The notes under the pieces are model-generated. The model worked only from the letters and a program-made list of their open reading frames with translations. It was not told the DNA's origin and searched no databases. The translations under genes were made by a program, and so were the position numbers. A stretch of DNA of 64,000 nt from Octopus vulgaris (Eukaryota). Numbering within the stretch: position 1 is the first letter of the stretch; each line of letters begins with the position of its first letter. Location: assembly GCA_951406725.2 (NCBI GenBank), contig OX597821.1:88598001-88662000 (forward strand), read 5' to 3'. Of the stretch, positions 2,497-60,517 are shown piece after piece.

Positions 2497-3260
2497 GTAT
2501 GTATGTGTGTATGTATGAATATTTATCTCAGTAAGTGAAGATGTGTGTTATTTCTGATTTCCAAAGAAGCTAAATTATTGAAACTCGGATGGTTTTAGCC
2601 GCAGTCACTAATACTGCGGAACGTCTTAATGATTTGAGAGGTGTTCACTCTAAAAGTATGTTGTCATTCGAAAACCAAGATAAAATCACCTCCGGAGAAC
2701 ATAATTCAGCATAACGGTGAAACGTATCGTGTTTAAAAGCCAACGAACTGCGGCGGCAAATGTTATCAACCCCGTGTCAACCAAAGCGCTCCAACGTGAG
2801 CTTCCTTAATCTTTGAAAGAATGAGAGCGCTGCAAACTCTCCTGTCCTCTATAAAGACTGAAAAATGGGAAAATACTGTGTAGAAGCAAGTGTTCAGTTG
2901 CTCAATGGAATAATGTCATATTCTCTGACACATCGTCATTCACTTTTTTTTTCATCATTTTGGACACCATTTGTATATCGAATATTTTGCTCACTTGTTT
3001 TTGTCTAACAATACTCTATCATTCCAGTTACCTTACTCCGTCAAAACGTAACTTGTTTTTTATTGATATCCTGGTCCTCAAAATGCTTAATAACATCACT
3101 TTTTTCCCCGATTTCTTTTTAACAGAACACATGATCCAATTGATCACTTCTAATGTGACGTCAGCAAATGGTGTCTAAAAACGTAATTACGCGGTGGTTA
3201 AAGTTGTAGATTCGTATGCCAGAGAAATGCCGTTAATTCCGATTTTAATTTATCATTTTA

Positions 3261-3390
3261 CCGAGGTCGACTTTGCTTTTCATCCTTTCGGGGTCGATAA
3301 ATTAAGTACCAGTTGCGTACTGGGGTCGATTTAATCGACTGGCCCCCTTCTCCCAAAATTTCAGGCCTTGTGCTTAGATTTGAAAAGATT
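3261..3390 (+). mobile_element. 5'-truncated SINE family A (variant tail)
   Basis: ccgaggtcgactttgc(c)tttcatcctttcggggtcgataaattaagtaccag...ggggtcgat matches full copies at 38101, 45675 and 60281; the tail ggccttgtg..tag matches the 45675 copy. Confidence 0.85.
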
Positions 3391-3415
3391 TATCATTTTT
3401 ATTATATCTTACATA

Positions 3416-3822
3416 GGCGCAGTAGTGGCTGTGTGGTAAGTAGCTTGTGAAACAACCACATGGTTCCGGGTTCAGTCCCACTGCGTGGCACCTTGGGCAA
3501 GTGCCTTCTATTATGGCCCCGGGCCGACCAAAGCCTTGTGAGTGGATTTGGGAGACGGAAACTGAGAGAAGCCTGTCGTATATATGTATATATATATATA
3601 TATATATGCGTTTGTGTGTCTGTGTTTGTCCCCTAGCATTGCTTGACAACCGATGCTGGTGTGTTTATGTTCCTGTTACTTAGCAGTTCGGCAAAAGAGA
3701 CCGATAGAATAAGTACTGGGCTTACAAAAGAATAAGTTCCGGGGTCGAGTTGCTCGATTAAAAGGTGGTGCTCCAGCATGGCCGCAGTCAAATGACTGAA
3801 ACAAGTAAAAGAGTAAAAGAGA
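3416..3822 (+). mobile_element. tRNA-derived SINE family B (CORE-like motif, internal microsatellite, LINE-like 3' tail)
   Basis: A-box-like gtggctgtgtggt, B-box-like ggttcagtccc, CORE-like accttgggcaagtg, internal (TA)n and 3' ccagcatggccgcagtc..tgactgaaac followed by (gtaaaaga)n. Related copies at 30618, 31128 and 61688. Confidence 0.88.
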
Positions 3823-13271: not shown

Positions 13272-13669
13272 TCTTTATATATAAAAGTCAAGTTGTGTGT
13301 CTGTCTCCTACGATTTAGATTCCTAACTACTCCCACATTTTGCGGTGCAGTTTAACCAAAACCGGGTATCTTATAGTCGTGATTCATATCGAGCTCTTCT
13401 GGCTATTAGCGCGCGTCTACAATGTGTCTACGATTTAAAAAAAAATTACCATCATTTTTTTCCATTTTAATGCATTTTTTTTGCTATTATATAAGGGACG
13501 TAACTCTCTAAAAATGTCTACGATGAGTCAACGATTTAAAAAAAATTTAACATCATTTTTTTTTCCATTTTTAATGCAATTTTTTGCTATTTTTTGGTTA
13601 TAACTCTCTAAAAATGCTTATATAGTTATTTCCCTTACAAACCCGAGAAACGCCGAGCGATACTGCTAG
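13272..13669 (+). mobile_element. Non-autonomous Helitron
   Basis: Begins A|TC (tctttatatataaaag), ends with subterminal hairpin cccgagaaacgccgag and CTAG|T; no TSD; internal ~85 bp duplication; second copy at 16062-16468. Confidence 0.9.
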
Positions 13670-16061: not shown

Positions 16062-16468
16062 CTAGCAGTATCGCCCGGCGTTGCTCGGGTTTGTAAGGGA
16101 AATAACTATATAAGCATTTTTGGAGAGTTATAGCCAAAAAGTAGCAAAAAAATGCATTAAAAATGGAAAACAAATCATGGTAATTTTTTTTTTAATCGTT
16201 GACTCATCGTAGACATTTTTAGAGAGTTACTTCGCTTATATAATAGCGAAAAAATGCATTAAAATGGAAAAAAATGATGGTAAATTATTTTTAAATCGTA
16301 GACTCATCGTAGACTCATCGTAGACGCGCGCTAATACCCAGAAGGGTTCGATATGAATCACGACTATAAGATACCCGGTTTTGGTTAAACTGCACCGCAA
16401 AATGTGGGAGTAGTTAGGAATCTAAATCGTAGGAGACAGACACACAACTTCTCTTTTATATATAAAGA
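16062..16468 (-). mobile_element. Non-autonomous Helitron (same family as 13272)
   Basis: Plus strand a|ctagcagtatcgcccggcgttgctcggg ... cttttatatataaaga|t corresponds to minus-strand TC...hairpin...CTAG in an A|T site. Confidence 0.9.
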
Positions 16469-22455: not shown

Positions 22456-23665
22456 AATGGGATATGTCACAAAGTGTGCGACCTCGGTATCGCTGTTTCA
22501 CTGGGTGACTGGCTGCATGTTTTTCTCAAGGGCAGAAGTCAGGCTGTCACAGCAAGTGGTTCTCTCTCTGAAGTGTTACCAATCCTCAGTGGAGTCCTCC
22601 AGGGAACAGTACTAGGACCACTACTATTTGTGGTTGTCCTCTCGGACATGTCCTCAGCCATAAAGTCAGCCACACTCTCTAGCTACTTTAACGACACAAA
22701 AGTGTCTCTGGTGGTCACGAATCATACTGATATCCTAAGACTGCAGAATGAGTTGAACGCAATATATAAGTGGGCAGATGAGAATAATATGCAGCTGAAT
22801 GCCGCATAATTTCAAGCACTGCGCTATCAGCCCACAGACCAACTACAACTTAAGTACACGGGACCAGCAGGCAATGTAATCCCAGATTTAGTCGGTGCGC
22901 AATCTGGGAATCCACTTGAACAATGATGCAACTTCCCATGTGCATATTGTTTAGGTGGCAACACTATGTAGGCGGGTGGCAGGTTGGATTCTTAGATCCT
23001 TCAGGATCGACAACAGAGGACAAAGGTTCTCTAACACAGACGCATCTCTGTGTTAGAGAACCTTTGTCCTCTGTCGTGCTTAACTGTGCTTAAAACCACA
23101 GAGCATAAAAGTAATTGCGGAACTAGAGGCAATCCAACGCCACTACACAAAGAATATAGACTCAGTAAAACACATGAGCTACTGGGAGACGTTAAAGGAA
23201 CTGGGACTCTATACCCTGGAGAGATGTGAGAGATATGCAGTGCTATATATATGGAAAATAATGGAGGATCTAGCTCCTAATTTCGGAATCGAAATCTACT
23301 ACATTCCCTAAACTGGTCGGCACTGCACAGTACCAACGGTGCCATCTTCTGTATCGAGGATACGAACCCAATATTGTAATATCTTGGGATTAAAGACATC
23401 ACAACATTTTAATGCCATAACACAGAACATCAGGGATCTGCGAGGTGTAGATATGAAAGTCTGCAAAAAACGTTTAGATAGGTTTTTTTTTCTACAATGC
23501 CGGATGAACACACATAGAGGCAGGAAGCACAAAGAAGAGCGGCAAAGTCTAACTCGCTACTTCACGAGAAGCAATACTGGAAGAATCTCCGGATGCAGCC
23601 AAGGCGGTGGACCAGCATGGCCTCAGTCTCTGGCTGAAACCCGTAAAATATAAAAGATAAAAGAT
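22456..23665 (+). mobile_element. CR1/L2-group LINE ORF2 relic (RT domain to 3' tail)
   Basis: SGVLQGTVLGPLLF, YFND (degenerate YADD), LQNELNAIYKWADENNMQLN, AELEAIQRHYTK, YWETLKELGLYTLER..RYAVLYIWKI; tail ccagcatggcctcagtc..ggctgaaac followed by (taaaaga)n; frameshifts and stops. Confidence 0.92.
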
Positions 23666-28412: not shown

Positions 28413-28647
28413 TACATTTCTTTACTACCCACAAGGGGCTAAACACTGAGGGGACAAACAAGGACAGACACACGGATTAAGTCGATTACATCGACGCCAG
28501 TGCGTAACTGGTACTTAATTTATCGACCCCGAAATGATGAAAGGCAAAGTCGACCTCGGCGGAATTTGAACTCAGAACGTAACGGCAGACGAAATACGGC
28601 TACGCATTTTGCCCGGCGTGCTAGCGTTTCTGCCAGCTCGCCGCCTT
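28413..28647 (-). mobile_element. Full-length SINE family A with 16-bp TSD
   Basis: Reverse complement of aaggcggcgagctggcagaaacg... ; TSD aacttcataacatata at 28397-28412 and 28648-28663. Confidence 0.95.
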
Positions 28648-37024: not shown

Positions 37025-38100
37025 GGTGGTGGTGGTTGTTGCTGTTGTTGTTGCTGTTGCTTGCTTGCTACTGATCTCTTTAATACTGGATTTTAACTAG
37101 TTTCGACTGAGTTGTCTATCCAAAATTTATCCTACCGGAAATAATGCTCTTTGGAAAATTTTTCTAGTTTGAAAACATCACACCAAATCAAAATGGTGGT
37201 ACAGAACTCCAACATAAACAGCGATATTTAAGATGAAAGTAATTCCACCAAAGTGAAACAGAAAATTAATGGAAACGTTTTACAGCAATACAGATGCACT
37301 TGGAAGGAGGAAACATTGATAATTTTTTAGAGATTCATTATATTAGGAATGGTCTTGGCGATTCACTTACCAAATAAATGAACAAATAAATAAATAAAGA
37401 GGGTAAAAACATTACGTACATTAACATATCCAAATATTTTTCAAAATTTTAGTCAAGAGTGACAGCAGAGCCTCCGAGGCTGTGGACAGAGAGAATGCCG
37501 CAAATTTTGATGTCAGGTTTCTTCAAGCTGGGGACCCGTCTCGAGTGTCTGTAACAGAATGAACTCAAATAAAGGTACACTATCTGCCGATGTTTCTTTT
37601 AAAACGGGCGACGAACTAAATCTACAACTCAAGTAGGCCATTGAATTCAGAACGTAAAGGGCCGAAACATATATCACAATATCTATGTTCTACGGTTCTG
37701 CCAGTTTACCGCTCTGGATCAGTACTTTTTATCAAGGCCGGAAAGAATTAAGAAAGAGTTTGTGCCACCGATATTTGAACTCAGAGTGCATGAGTCGGAA
37801 CAAATTTTGCGATACATTTTATCAGAGCTCTAACGACCCTGCCTGTACGCTGCTTAAGGCTTTTTGCGACAGAAACATATGCTTTTCTATCCAAACATGC
37901 CAAACTAGTAAACTGATAAGAGAAATCAAGAAAATAACCCAGCTGAGACTTAGCAATGTTTATAGGCTTTCCTTGTGTTCTCCTGAGAATAATTTGGTGC
38001 ACTTCTCATTAATATATGGTGTAGTACGAAATGGGCGAAGAGACTGGCTACGTGAGTGTGGATAAACCAGTCCATGTACTGCGTCGATGGTATTTAGAAG

Positions 38101-38335
38101 GCGGCGAGCTGGCAGAAACGGTAGCACGCCGGGCGAAATGCGTAGCCGTACTTCGTCTGCCGTTACATTCTGAGCTCAAATTCCGCCGAGGTCGACTTTG
38201 CCTTTCATCCTTTCGGGGTCGATCAAATAAGTACCAGTTACGCACTGGGGTCGATATAATCGATTTAATCCGTTTGTCTGTCCTTATTTGTCTTCTCTGT
38301 GTTTAGCTCCTTGTGGGTAGTAAAGAAATAGGTAT
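38101..38335 (+). mobile_element. Full-length SINE family A with 13-bp TSD
   Basis: gcggcgagctggcagaaacg...gagctcaaattccgccgaggtcgactttgcctttcatcctttcggggtcgat...aaagaaata; TSD ggtatttagaagg at 38089-38101 and 38331-38343. Confidence 0.95.
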
Positions 38336-41001: not shown

Positions 41002-41038
<37 letters not shown>

Positions 41039-41042
<4 letters not shown>

Positions 41043-41532
41043 TGTGAAATAGAAAGATGAATAATCTTGTAGTAAATTAATCAAAAGTTTAACCGATACC
41101 TTAGTAGCAAAAATCACAGCAGTAAACAGCACGGTTGGAGGTACAACCATATGGTGTTGCAACCGTGCGTTGGTGCGGATAATTGAAATTAAAATATTAT
41201 TGGTGAATTGAAGAAATGGAGCTGAACGCAGATTGAACAGAAATCGTTTTATTTCATTCTACACGTGTTTCGAAAGGCACAATTTACCAAAATCCGATTG
41301 AATAATGGGACCATATTGTGTCTTTCTCTTCTGTTGTCTCTGTTCTGTTTTTGTTTTTGTTTTTTCCAACGGATTCCTAATTTTCTTCCTGAAGAGAAAG
41401 ACACAATATGGTCCCATTATTCAATCGGATTTTGGTAAATTGTGCCTTTCGAAACACGTGTAGAATGAAATAAAACGATTTCTGTTCAATCTGCGTTCAG
41501 CTCCATTTCTTCAATTCACCAATAATATTTTA
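41039..41532. mobile_element. Foldback (inverted-arm) Penelope-type non-autonomous element in (TA)n
   Basis: Perfect inverted arms 41190-41331 and 41391-41532 (142 bp) with a 59 bp spacer; TA repeats on both sides; contains a hammerhead motif. Confidence 0.8.
41381..41470 (+). ncRNA. Type I hammerhead ribozyme motif (extended stem II, palindromic stem III)
   Basis: tttcttc-CTGAAGA(41389-95)-gaaagacacaat...attgtgcctttc-GAAA(41451-54)-c-acgt-GTA^-gaa(t)gaaa; predicted cleavage after 41462. Confidence 0.75.
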
Positions 41533-41550
41533 TATATATATATATATATA

Positions 41551-41700
41551 TCTAGAAAGGAGAGTTTGTATGTGACTGTGTGTATACGTATCTTCCTTAT
41601 GCACTTCGAAACCGAATTACCGGTTTTGACGTATGGGGTATCAAAAAGATTCAATACTATTTCGGCTACCAACTAAACTTTATTTTCATTCACATACTTG
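41551..41700 (+). mobile_element. Possible Helitron-type 5' end fragment
   Basis: (TA)n-tctagaaaggagagtttgtatgtg..tccttatgcac..aaaccg..accg.ttttgac resembles the organisation of non-autonomous Helitron 5' ends; no 3' CTAG hairpin seen. Confidence 0.3.
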
Positions 41701-45405: not shown

Positions 45406-45891
<486 letters not shown>

Positions 45892-50019: not shown

Positions 50020-50058
<39 letters not shown>

Positions 50059-50232
50059 ATAAATATTAGGGAATAAATCCAAATTTACAGGGAAAAATCA
50101 GATTTAGAATTAAATCCAATTTTATAGTAAAATATTATATAATATAATTCGAGACAAAACCACTATTTTGCAAAACAAACAAGGAAAGACTTAATCAATA
50201 CATATAAATTTTTAATATAAAGAAATAAACCG

Positions 50233-50275
50233 CCACTACAATCGTTTCATGTCTTCAATGACATTCGTCAGGTGG
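50233..50275 (-). ncRNA. Minimal type I hammerhead ribozyme motif (inverted copy)
   Basis: Exact reverse complement of 50312-50354. Confidence 0.82.
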
Positions 50276-50311
50276 ATTTTCGATCTCCTAATCTGTTTTA
50301 AAACAGAAAAT

Positions 50312-50354
50312 CCACCTGACGAATGTCATTGAAGACATGAAACGATTGTAGTGG
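50312..50354 (+). ncRNA. Minimal type I hammerhead ribozyme motif
   Basis: ccac-CTGACGA-atgtc(attgaa)gacat-GAAA-c(gatt)GTA^-gtgg: all core nucleotides present, stem I ccac/gtgg, stem II 5 bp, minimal self-complementary stem III; predicted cleavage after 50350. Confidence 0.85.
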
Positions 50355-50439
50355 CGGTTTATTTCTTTATATTAAAATTTTTATGTATTGATTAAGTCTT
50401 TCCTTGTTTGTTTTGCAAAATAGTGGTTTTGTCTCGAAT

Positions 50440-50558
<119 letters not shown>

Positions 50559-60276: not shown

Positions 60277-60517
60277 TCAAGGCGGCGAGCTGGCAGAAAT
60301 GTTAGCACGTCGGGCGAAATGCTTAGCGGTATTTCGTCTGCCGTTACGTTGTGAGTTCAAATTCCGCCGAGGTCGACTTTACCTTTCATCCTTTCGGGGT
60401 CGATAAATTAAGTACCAGTTACGCACTAGGGTCGATGTAATCGACTTAATACCCATGTCTGTCCTTGTTTGTCCCTTCTATGTTTAGCCCCTTGTGGGTA
60501 ATAAAAAAAATAGGTAT
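60277..60517 (+). mobile_element. Full-length SINE family A with 18-bp TSD
   Basis: TSD ggtatagaattcaatctt at 60259-60276 and 60513-60530. Confidence 0.95.

What the first reader, a model, noticed from the sequence alone, without database searches (positions are those of the whole stretch)
41039..41532. Second, sequence-unrelated foldback hammerhead element with the same architecture
Seen: (TA)n, then a ~150 bp unique segment (with its own hairpin gcacggttg..caaccgtgc at 41129-41168), a 142 bp arm, a 59 bp spacer, a perfect inverted arm, then (TA)n. The right arm completes a hammerhead: CUGAAGA, an unusually long stem II (12-bp base gaaagacacaat/attgtgcctttc plus a ~30 nt cap), GAAA, palindromic stem III acacgtgt and a GUA cleavage triplet. 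The inversion breakpoint falls inside the catalytic core, so the minus-strand copy reads caGAAGA and should be inactive. Inference: the same layout in two unrelated sequences 9 kb apart indicates a recurrent insertion mechanism rather than chance. The absence of mismatches between arms implies recent insertion or gene conversion.
Basis: partly seen in the sequence, partly recalled or inferred. Interest (0 to 1): 0.75.

Follow-up and report, generated by a model that had tools for sequence, protein, structure and literature searches.

The report
Twin-copy Penelope retrotransposon leader insertion
This DNA hairpin is two cut-short copies of the same end of a common jumping gene (a Penelope-like retrotransposon) joined head to head in a TA repeat; its many sister copies share two fixed ends and a favoured stopping point, which likely record how the element copies its RNA, while the predicted self-cutting RNA inside has an unusually long arm but is untested.

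Summary
Observation confirmed: perfect 142-bp arms, 59-bp spacer, type I hammerhead motif with a 55-nt stem II. It is a head-to-head pair of 5'-truncated copies of a young Hydra-like Penelope element (3,624-bp unit, 895-aa RT-endonuclease; 1,650 exact 29-mer hits in the genome). The 'unique 150 bp' is the element's tail between two fixed 3' ends (147 of 148 and 106 of 111 ends). 249 of 259 outer ends abut (TA)n. Junctions vary per copy, so this is not a MITE; a break inside the core is an accident (44 of 96 pairs keep both ribozymes). Arms match within loci (0.4% versus 1.8% shuffled), so conversion is not needed. Beyond print as far as my searches reached: 5' ends pile up at an initiator-like CAGTTT (19 of 45 arms in a preset validation), paired 5' ends correlate (27 of 96 versus 7.8), the tail is 4-5 times the usual length, and stem II covaries between families. 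The Hydra CxCX5C linker is missing. No cleavage or RNA-end data. The scan has noted this architecture and long stem II before, on other DNA.

The parts
41003..41038 (.). (TA)18, left part of the target microsatellite
   Evidence: 249 of 259 outer ends of the family abut (TA)>=5
41039..41331 (-). Long-ended 5'-truncated copy (unit positions 3332-3624 of natural full-length copy L031:3135-6758); sense on the minus strand
   Evidence: 100% BLAST identity rounded; one private change
41039..41189 (-). One-sided 'tail', 151 nt: 5'-UTR sequence between the two fixed 3' ends; in full-length copies it runs on into the ORF 45 nt later
41129..41168 (-). Hairpin in the tail, 24-63 nt past the short end; kept in an 80%-identical sister family with one double-sided change
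41190..41331 (-). Left arm; truncated inside the core (no CU, no stem I 5' strand), so no complete ribozyme on this strand
41332..41337 (.). 6-nt filler at the head-to-head junction, matching neither arm
41338..41532 (+). Short-ended 5'-truncated copy (unit positions about 3284-3473), with one slipped TTTTTG repeat
41380..41471 (+). Type I hammerhead motif: stem I 41380-41388/41463-41471, core 41389-41395, stem II 41396-41450, GAAA 41451-41454, palindromic stem III, predicted cut after 41462
   Evidence: covariation; core intact in 155 of 162 arms that span it
41531..41551 (.). (TA)n, right part of the target microsatellite
50057..50450 (.). Sibling insertion of another Hydra-type family: same layout, 75-nt tail, short-stem-II hammerhead (core 50316-50322) complete on both arms
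   Evidence: short end recurs in 17 of 30 loci; RT fragment 50% identical to P0001 in L158

Best explanation
It is a dead-end, head-to-head pair of 5'-truncated copies of a Hydra-like Penelope retrotransposon sitting in a (TA)n tract, likely made when the element's endonuclease cut both strands and its reverse transcriptase primed from both DNA ends, starting at two fixed sites about 153 nt apart in the RNA leader. SHOWN: parent element, two fixed 3' ends, variable 5' ends, head-to-head geometry, TA targeting, within-locus arm identity, correlated 5' ends, pile-up of 5' ends at an initiator-like motif. INFERRED: the two ends are RT start sites (by analogy to the anole element in vitro); both cDNAs come from one RNA or one source locus; many are copies of the first (5') leader of the transcript that run off at the transcription start; the two cDNA ends are joined by short microhomology or filler. 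The hammerhead is cargo of the pLTR: predicted to cut only as a dimer, and in this copy a read-through transcript would bury it in the 142-bp hairpin.
For: Parent: L031 holds pLTR-ORF-pLTR with a 3,624-bp period; RT and EN read in one frame in 15 of 20 spans; 895-aa ORF in L075; 32% identity to a canonical relative over RT and 31% over EN. Ends: 147 of 148 long ends at 3619-3624, 106 of 111 short ends at 3464-3474; 62 of 70 head-to-head loci of the discovery set end long+short, 1 long+long. Geometry: head-to-head in 46 of 66, 31 of 39 (sets overlap in 7 loci) and 46 of 58 loci; tail-to-tail in 1 of 98. Two primers: the short arm reaches >20 nt further 5' in 42 of 96 pairs, the long arm in 27, and in 9 the long arm starts beyond the short end, which one arm copying the other cannot give. 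Same template: 49 mismatches in 11,498 positions within loci versus 1.8% (minimum 1.4%) in 200 shuffled pairings; 46 of 75 loci identical; 5' ends within 20 nt in 27 of 96 versus 7.8 shuffled, p 0.0002. Leader run-off: bin 3226-3254 fixed in note before validation; 19 ends among 45 arms at risk, p 8.5e-9 against neighbouring bins, in both arm classes; pooled 36 of 128 versus 2 of 92 in the next 29 nt upstream; 58 of 96 pairs are leader-only; in the sister family 15 of 29 long arms stop within -19..+13 of the homologous CAGTTT and none between -20 and -78. Literature: tail = distance between two internal RT starts, both strands cut and extended, ribozyme not needed (PMC11167929).
Against: No direct transcription-start, RNA-end or cleavage data. 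Two of three post hoc clusters (3380-3404, 3280-3334) failed validation. Initiator status of CAGTTT rests on a recalled consensus; the same spot also fits a splice acceptor or an RT-stopping structure. 20 of 66 and 8 of 39 loci show one arm only. The tail here is 151-155 nt against 30-40 nt in print, so the analogy to the anole element is stretched. Samples are the best-scoring or first-listed hits, not random draws, and two arms of the 80% sister family were counted by the script (L223, L281). The exact junction of this copy was not among the joints listed from public contigs.
Confidence: 0.72

Rival explanations
1. Self-priming (snap-back) on an antisense RNA or a first cDNA makes the second arm as a copy of the first (Arkhipova 2013).
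For: Arms near-identical and 5' ends correlated; junction overlaps of 1-7 nt in 40 of 72 junctions; proposed in PMC3846280 (passages).
Against: It predicts that one arm always contains the other. In 42 of 96 pairs the short arm has extra 5' sequence while the long arm has the tail, and in 9 the arms do not overlap. It may still account for part of the 27 near-symmetric pairs.
Confidence: 0.12
2. Two priming events as in the best explanation, but the pile-up at 3226-3254 marks a splice acceptor, a structure or a processed RNA end rather than the transcription start.
For: The motif ends in CAG with CTGAT upstream (print-out); PLE 5' UTRs hold introns (PMC2377424 passages; PMC8557442); the pile-up is spread over about 29 nt.
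Against: CAGTTT and the pile-up are kept in a sister family whose upstream letters differ; copies that pass the point continue into unspliced upstream sequence.
Confidence: 0.1
3. A fixed MITE-like or retrozyme unit that spreads as a foldback, or a ribozyme switch selected to have one dead arm.
For: 25 best hits resemble the whole 494 bp at 84-100%; non-autonomous retrozymes derive from pLTRs (bioRxiv 10.64898/2026.07.22.740005, abstract only).
Against: Junctions differ from locus to locus on both arms; outer ends are asymmetric, not terminal inverted repeats; 44 of 96 pairs keep both ribozymes.
Confidence: 0.03
4. Assembly artefact (collapsed or chimeric palindrome).
For: This copy's own junction was not seen in public contigs; the tool skipped repeats at 41335-41370.
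Against: Dozens of loci with private junctions, fillers and flanks; contigs of run X15 hold other left-to-right joints; same layout in two further families.
Confidence: 0.03

Closest known systems
EN+ Penelope-like element insertions with an inverted 5'-truncated copy and one-sided tail (Craig et al. 2021 PMC8557442; Arkhipova et al. 2013 PMC3846280; D. virilis Penelope, PMC2377424)
   Same: Partial tandems, inverted 5'-truncated copy, tail at one end, head-to-head junction, hammerhead in the pLTR; opposite-strand hammerheads 100-700 bp apart were already seen in Schistosoma (PMC4209133).
   Different: Tail 151-155 nt (145 in the sister family, 75 in the sibling) instead of 30-40; 58 of 96 pairs are leader-only; 5' ends pile up at one motif.
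Hydra clade of C-terminal EN+ PLEs, e.g. Hydra-1_Obim (PMC8557442 section 11 and Files S1, S2)
   Same: DKT motif, RW(K>L) motif, divergent RT4, C-terminal EN with CxxC and CxH, no CCHH, (TA)n target, type I hammerhead with self-complementary stem III.
   Different: No CxCX5C linker (a long Ser/Asn-rich stretch instead, as in Adineta N-rich inserts); unit 3.6 kb against <3 kb; stem II 55 nt against 3-7 bp plus a 3-10-nt loop in the 26 Hydra rows of File S2; by eye a different family from Hydra-1_Obim.
Poseidon_Ac of Anolis carolinensis (Frangieh et al. 2024, PMC11167929)
   Same: Two internal RT start sites defining the tail; both strands of AT-rich DNA cut and extended; ribozyme dispensable for insertion.
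   Different: Other clade; starts lie inside the ORF there and upstream of the ORF here; short tail.
Metazoan minimal hammerheads and non-LTR retrozymes (PMC4209133; PMC7229834)
   Same: Palindromic helix III that needs a dimer.
   Different: Long, covarying helix II; here part of an autonomous element, not a tandem non-coding unit. A long stem II is listed once for a PLE in File S2 (PLE-X1_sMoe, spike moss, marked as deviating).

Membership tests
EN+ Penelope-like elements | Single ORF with PLE-type RT and C-terminal GIY-YIG-type endonuclease | tested here: met
   895-aa ORF; 15 of 20 spans in frame; aligns with 8 relatives over RT and EN. Pfam gave no RT or GIY-YIG hit, so the domain names rest on motif match to the Hydra alignments in PMC8557442.
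EN+ Penelope-like elements | Partial tandems forming pLTRs | tested here: met
   L031, L075, L081, L191-L192 with 3,624-bp period
EN+ Penelope-like elements | Inverted 5'-truncated copy and one-sided tail | tested here: met
   tail longer than the published 30-40 bp
EN+ Penelope-like elements | Hammerhead motif in the pLTR, sense strand | tested here: met
   core at unit 3330, same strand as the ORF
EN+ Penelope-like elements | Target-site duplication | tested here: inconclusive
   hidden by (TA)n on both sides
Hydra clade | DKG changed to DKT; RWK motif; no GxKF/Y | tested here: met
   SDKT present; RWL instead of RWK
Hydra clade | EN without CCHH, with CxxC and CxH | tested here: met
   CNLC and CPH aligned with relatives
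Hydra clade | CxCX5C linker between RT and EN | tested here: not met
   Absent in the intact ORF; present in 8 of 8 relatives aligned. Hence 'Hydra-like, derived', not filed as a strict member.
Hydra clade | Insertion into (TA)n | tested here: met
   249 of 259 outer ends
Hydra clade | Placement in the Hydra RT clade on a tree with reference PLEs | not tested
   reference sequences lie in a paper supplement and were compared by eye only
Type I hammerhead ribozyme | CUGANGA, GAAA, NUH, three helices | tested here: met
   stem III only as a dimer (monomer pair probability 0.03; palindrome duplex -10.3 kcal/mol)
Type I hammerhead ribozyme | Covariation in the helices | tested here: met
   4 families: 8 of 24 pairs with double-sided changes, 5 in stem II; 85% paired against 35-55% when slid; 7 of 500 shuffles reach the score; second group 7 of 24. 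Few sequences; none within the family itself.
Type I hammerhead ribozyme | Self-cleavage | not testable with these tools
   5 of 220 arms start at 3403-3405 against 1.9 expected (p 0.045, post hoc): a hint only
MITE / foldback DNA transposon | Fixed unit with symmetric terminal inverted repeats | tested here: not met
   asymmetric ends, variable junctions

The most novel reading that the evidence does not exclude
These foldbacks are the genomic footprint of a paired-priming mechanism: one RNP primes from both ends of a cut (TA)n at two sites about 153 nt apart on the same RNA, and most events copy only the 5' leader and run off at the transcription start, so the junctions map the start site. 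In addition, a lineage of Hydra-like PLEs has evolved a 51-69-nt covarying stem II, often holding a poly(A)-type signal 17-29 nt before the cut, and targets (TA)n without the linker zinc finger thought to direct it.
Probability: 0.45. Interest if true: 0.65.

Novelty: new variant of a known kind. Interest (0 to 1): 0.42.

Why it matters
How Penelope-like elements integrate, and why they leave inverted copies and a tail, is still open (PMC8557442, PMC11167929). A young family with about a thousand insertions, two start sites 150 nt apart and subfamily markers lets the models be told apart from genome sequence alone: it already argues against pure snap-back and for two primers on one template, and it predicts a transcription start that one RACE experiment can test. 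The long stem II would be missed by descriptors limited to short spacers and by Rfam, so such ribozymes may be under-counted. TA targeting without the CxCX5C linker questions the idea that this linker directs it. The single locus itself is an inert by-product.

Tried and rejected
Rfam: no hammerhead family hit. Folding energy of 41370-41490 no better than shuffles. Pfam: no RT or EN family; PDB profile search: nothing relevant. Clusters of 5' ends at 3380-3404 and 3280-3334 seen in the discovery set failed in the validation set (p 0.56 and 0.25) and are dropped. A programmed frameshift or intron between RT and EN, suggested by L031, was rejected: 15 of 20 spans are in frame and public contigs carry the extra base. 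An antisense ribozyme, suggested by L026, was rejected after mapping the inversion. Covariation within the family: none among frequent variants. Expression: no RNA holder listed; four runs guessed to be RNA were contigs only and show no starts, ends, strand or back-splice; contigs of X5 and X7 begin at unit 3235 behind microsatellite letters, most simply other genomic insertions. Presence or absence of this insertion in other animals: no contig bridges the site. No Hydra-type coding sequence in the window itself. Rows dropped before counts: L002-L029 hits chosen by likeness to the whole finding were left out of breakpoint statistics unless re-found by the tail search; L192 (continuation of L191), L225 (query), L283 (duplicate of L208), L314 (query); tandem junctions were not counted as outer ends. 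Host genes of the window were not examined. No tree was built. Paper searches found no description of a 5'-end pile-up at the start site or of 50-70-nt stem II in Hydra-type elements; the library lacks most subscription papers (e.g. Arkhipova 2006 and Lunse 2017, recalled, not read), and only part 2 of 59 plus search hits of the PMC8557442 supplement were seen.

Full report
Observation. The layout is as described: (TA)18, 151 bp, a 142-bp arm, 59 bp, a perfect inverted arm, (TA)n. The plus strand holds a complete type I hammerhead motif (core 41389, 55-nt stem II, GAAA, ACACGUGU palindrome, cut predicted after 41462). Stem II is the stable part (closing pair probability 0.99); stem I (0.08) and monomeric stem III (0.03) are not favoured, and the hammerhead fold is -14.5 against -17.3 kcal/mol for the best fold. 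Rfam does not call it and energy is no better than shuffles. A transcript through the whole insert folds into the 142-bp hairpin.

What it is. The window lies in a 2.8-Gb animal genome; a relative of the protein is named from Argonauta, so a cephalopod host is a guess. The sequence is abundant: 1,834 candidates (40 scored), 1,650 exact hits of a 29-mer of the arm, 771 of a 28-mer of the '150-bp unique' part, both with 0 control hits. Longer copies lead to a 3,624-bp tandem unit (L031:3135-6758) with an RT ORF on the ribozyme's strand. L031's frameshift is private: 15 of 20 spans read from RT through the endonuclease, 4 of 6 full-length copies have no stop in 800 codons, and L075 encodes 895 aa. 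The protein has 474 relatives among 7,995 candidates scored and the marks of the Hydra clade (DKT, RW, CxxC and CxH, no CCHH) but lacks the CxCX5C linker that 8 of 8 aligned relatives have. I therefore call it Hydra-like.

Anatomy across copies. I mapped a discovery set of 98 loci (66 in chromosome order, 39 from the tail search, 7 shared) and a validation set of 58 from two other subfamily tails. Outer ends fall in two classes: 147 of 148 long ends at unit 3619-3624 and 106 of 111 short ends at 3464-3474; 249 of 259 abut (TA)>=5. Head-to-head pairs were found in 70 of 98 and 46 of 58 loci, tail-to-tail in 1 of 98; 62 of the 70 end long+short. The window's copy is long arm 3332-3624 plus short arm about 3284-3473 with a 6-nt filler. 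The 'unique segment' is thus the tail, the stretch of leader between the two ends. Inner ends vary: overlaps of 1-7 nt in 40 of 72 junctions, blunt in 7, inserts in 16, longer overlaps in 9 (BLAST estimates). Of 96 long+short pairs, 44 reach past the ribozyme on both arms, 31 on one, 21 on none; the dead minus-strand copy here is chance.

Mechanism. Published work shows that an anole PLE protein cuts and extends both strands of AT-rich DNA and starts at two internal RNA sites whose distance is the tail, with no need for ribozyme cleavage (PMC11167929, parts 1-2 of 4 read). The genomic pattern fits paired priming. (a) Either arm can reach further 5' (42 short, 27 long, 27 within 20 nt) and 9 pairs do not overlap, against the snap-back model of PMC3846280 (passages) as sole route. 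(b) Arms agree within loci (49 of 11,498 positions; 46 of 75 identical) more than between loci (1.8%), and their 5' ends lie within 20 nt in 27 of 96 against 7.8 (p 0.0002; 20 of 89 against 6.5 without pairs at the pile-up): one template, or at least one source. (c) 5' ends pile up at 3226-3254. Three bins were picked by eye and fixed in a note; only this one held in validation (19 ends, 1.84 per 100 nt against 0.2-0.4 beside it, both arm classes). Pooled: 36 of 128 arms at risk stop there, 8 of 136 in the 29 nt before and 2 of 92 in the 29 nt after. The bin holds CAGTTT, which resembles an initiator (consensus recalled; D. virilis Penelope has an internal Inr/DPE promoter, PMC2377424 passages). 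A sister family (80% identical, 145-nt tail) keeps CAGTTT and 15 of 29 long arms stop within -19..+13 of it; these loci were selected to cover the leader, which does not favour stopping there. The simplest reading is that RT often starts in the first leader of the transcript and runs off its 5' end; 58 of 96 pairs are leader-only. This step is inferred; a splice site or structure remains possible. Only 5 of 220 arms start at the predicted cut (1.9 expected, p 0.045, post hoc), so cleaved RNA is at most a minor template.

The ribozyme. The core is intact in 155 of 162 arms that span it, and frequent variants lie in the cap or top pair of stem II. Between four related families 8 of 24 pairs show double-sided changes, 5 in stem II; a second group of six gives 7 of 24. 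A scan of all loci fetched up to one search found 14 sequence types (my grouping) with stem II of 51-69 nt, at least four of them 273-340 nt upstream of a Hydra-type ORF, against 3-7 bp plus 3-10-nt loops in the 26 Hydra rows of File S2 of PMC8557442; one spike-moss PLE there has a long stem II. Palindromic stem III and dimer dependence are known, as are opposite-strand pairs 100-700 bp apart (PMC4209133, parts 1-2 of 4). PMC7229834 and PMC3088659 (passages) gave no long-stem-II class; the bioRxiv retrozyme paper was seen as abstract and outline only.

The sibling at 50057-50450 is another family: no significant DNA match to this unit, the same two-end rule (short end in 17 of 30 loci, 75-nt tail), a short stem II, and an RT fragment 50% identical to P0001 in L158. 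Two such inserts 9 kb apart are unsurprising given the number of families in this genome.

Limits. No raw RNA reads, no cleavage data, no bridging reads for this locus; samples are not random; no tree. Earlier notes of the scan describe the same architecture, leader-only copying, tail hairpins and long stem II on other DNA; none covers this place or sequence. My leader-stop idea was noted before I read them; they are not evidence.

Verdict. Real, explained, a new variant of a known kind: an inert by-product of a young Hydra-like Penelope family, useful as a quantitative record of PLE integration. Interest 0.42.

Noticed in passing
L288:248-333, L087:2201-2296, L302:1209-1303, L313:868-962, L119:297-390, L303:3267-3358, L291:4575-4662, L032:5571-5657: 8 of 14 long-stem-II hammerhead types carry AATAAA or ATTAAA inside stem II, 17-29 nt before the predicted cut (0.5 expected from shuffles). 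The types are partly related, and the finding's own family lacks it. Could couple the cut to polyadenylation.
   Followed up: partly
L075:5591-8278 (-): Intact 895-aa ORF in which a long Ser/Asn-rich stretch replaces the CxCX5C linker, like the N-rich inserts of Adineta Penelopes, yet the family still lands in (TA)n.
   Followed up: partly
L191-L192 (G000:C1:119.514-119.527 Mb): Tandem array of three full 3,624-bp units plus a truncated fourth, a possible sign of a multimeric or circular template.
   Followed up: no
L238:1364-1649 and L223:488-780: Both arms begin at or within 4 nt of the predicted ribozyme cut, as expected if a cleaved RNA was copied twice.
   Followed up: partly
L032 and L033 (G000:C30, 1.8 Mb apart): Same insertion with the same junction and flanking ORFs twice in opposite orientation: segmental duplication or duplicated haplotype.
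   Followed up: no
L031:2321-2609: A separate 289-bp near-perfect palindrome in the same TA tract, directly beside the full-length element; other large unexplained palindromes in L037:4863-5238, L042:4391-4915, L036:5476-5644.
   Followed up: no
window 3266-3314, 28416-28647, 38098-38329, 45752-45781, 60279-60500: Dispersed SINE-like repeat family in both orientations.
   Followed up: no
window 13290-13647 / 16084-16450: Long imperfect inverted repeat about 2.4-3 kb apart, possibly the ends of a DNA transposon.
   Followed up: no
window 23013-23074: Perfect 28-bp hairpin with a 6-nt loop.
   Followed up: no
L284-L313: At least three further young Hydra-type families with long open frames in this genome, each with its own long-stem-II hammerhead 273-286 nt upstream of the protein match.
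   Followed up: partly
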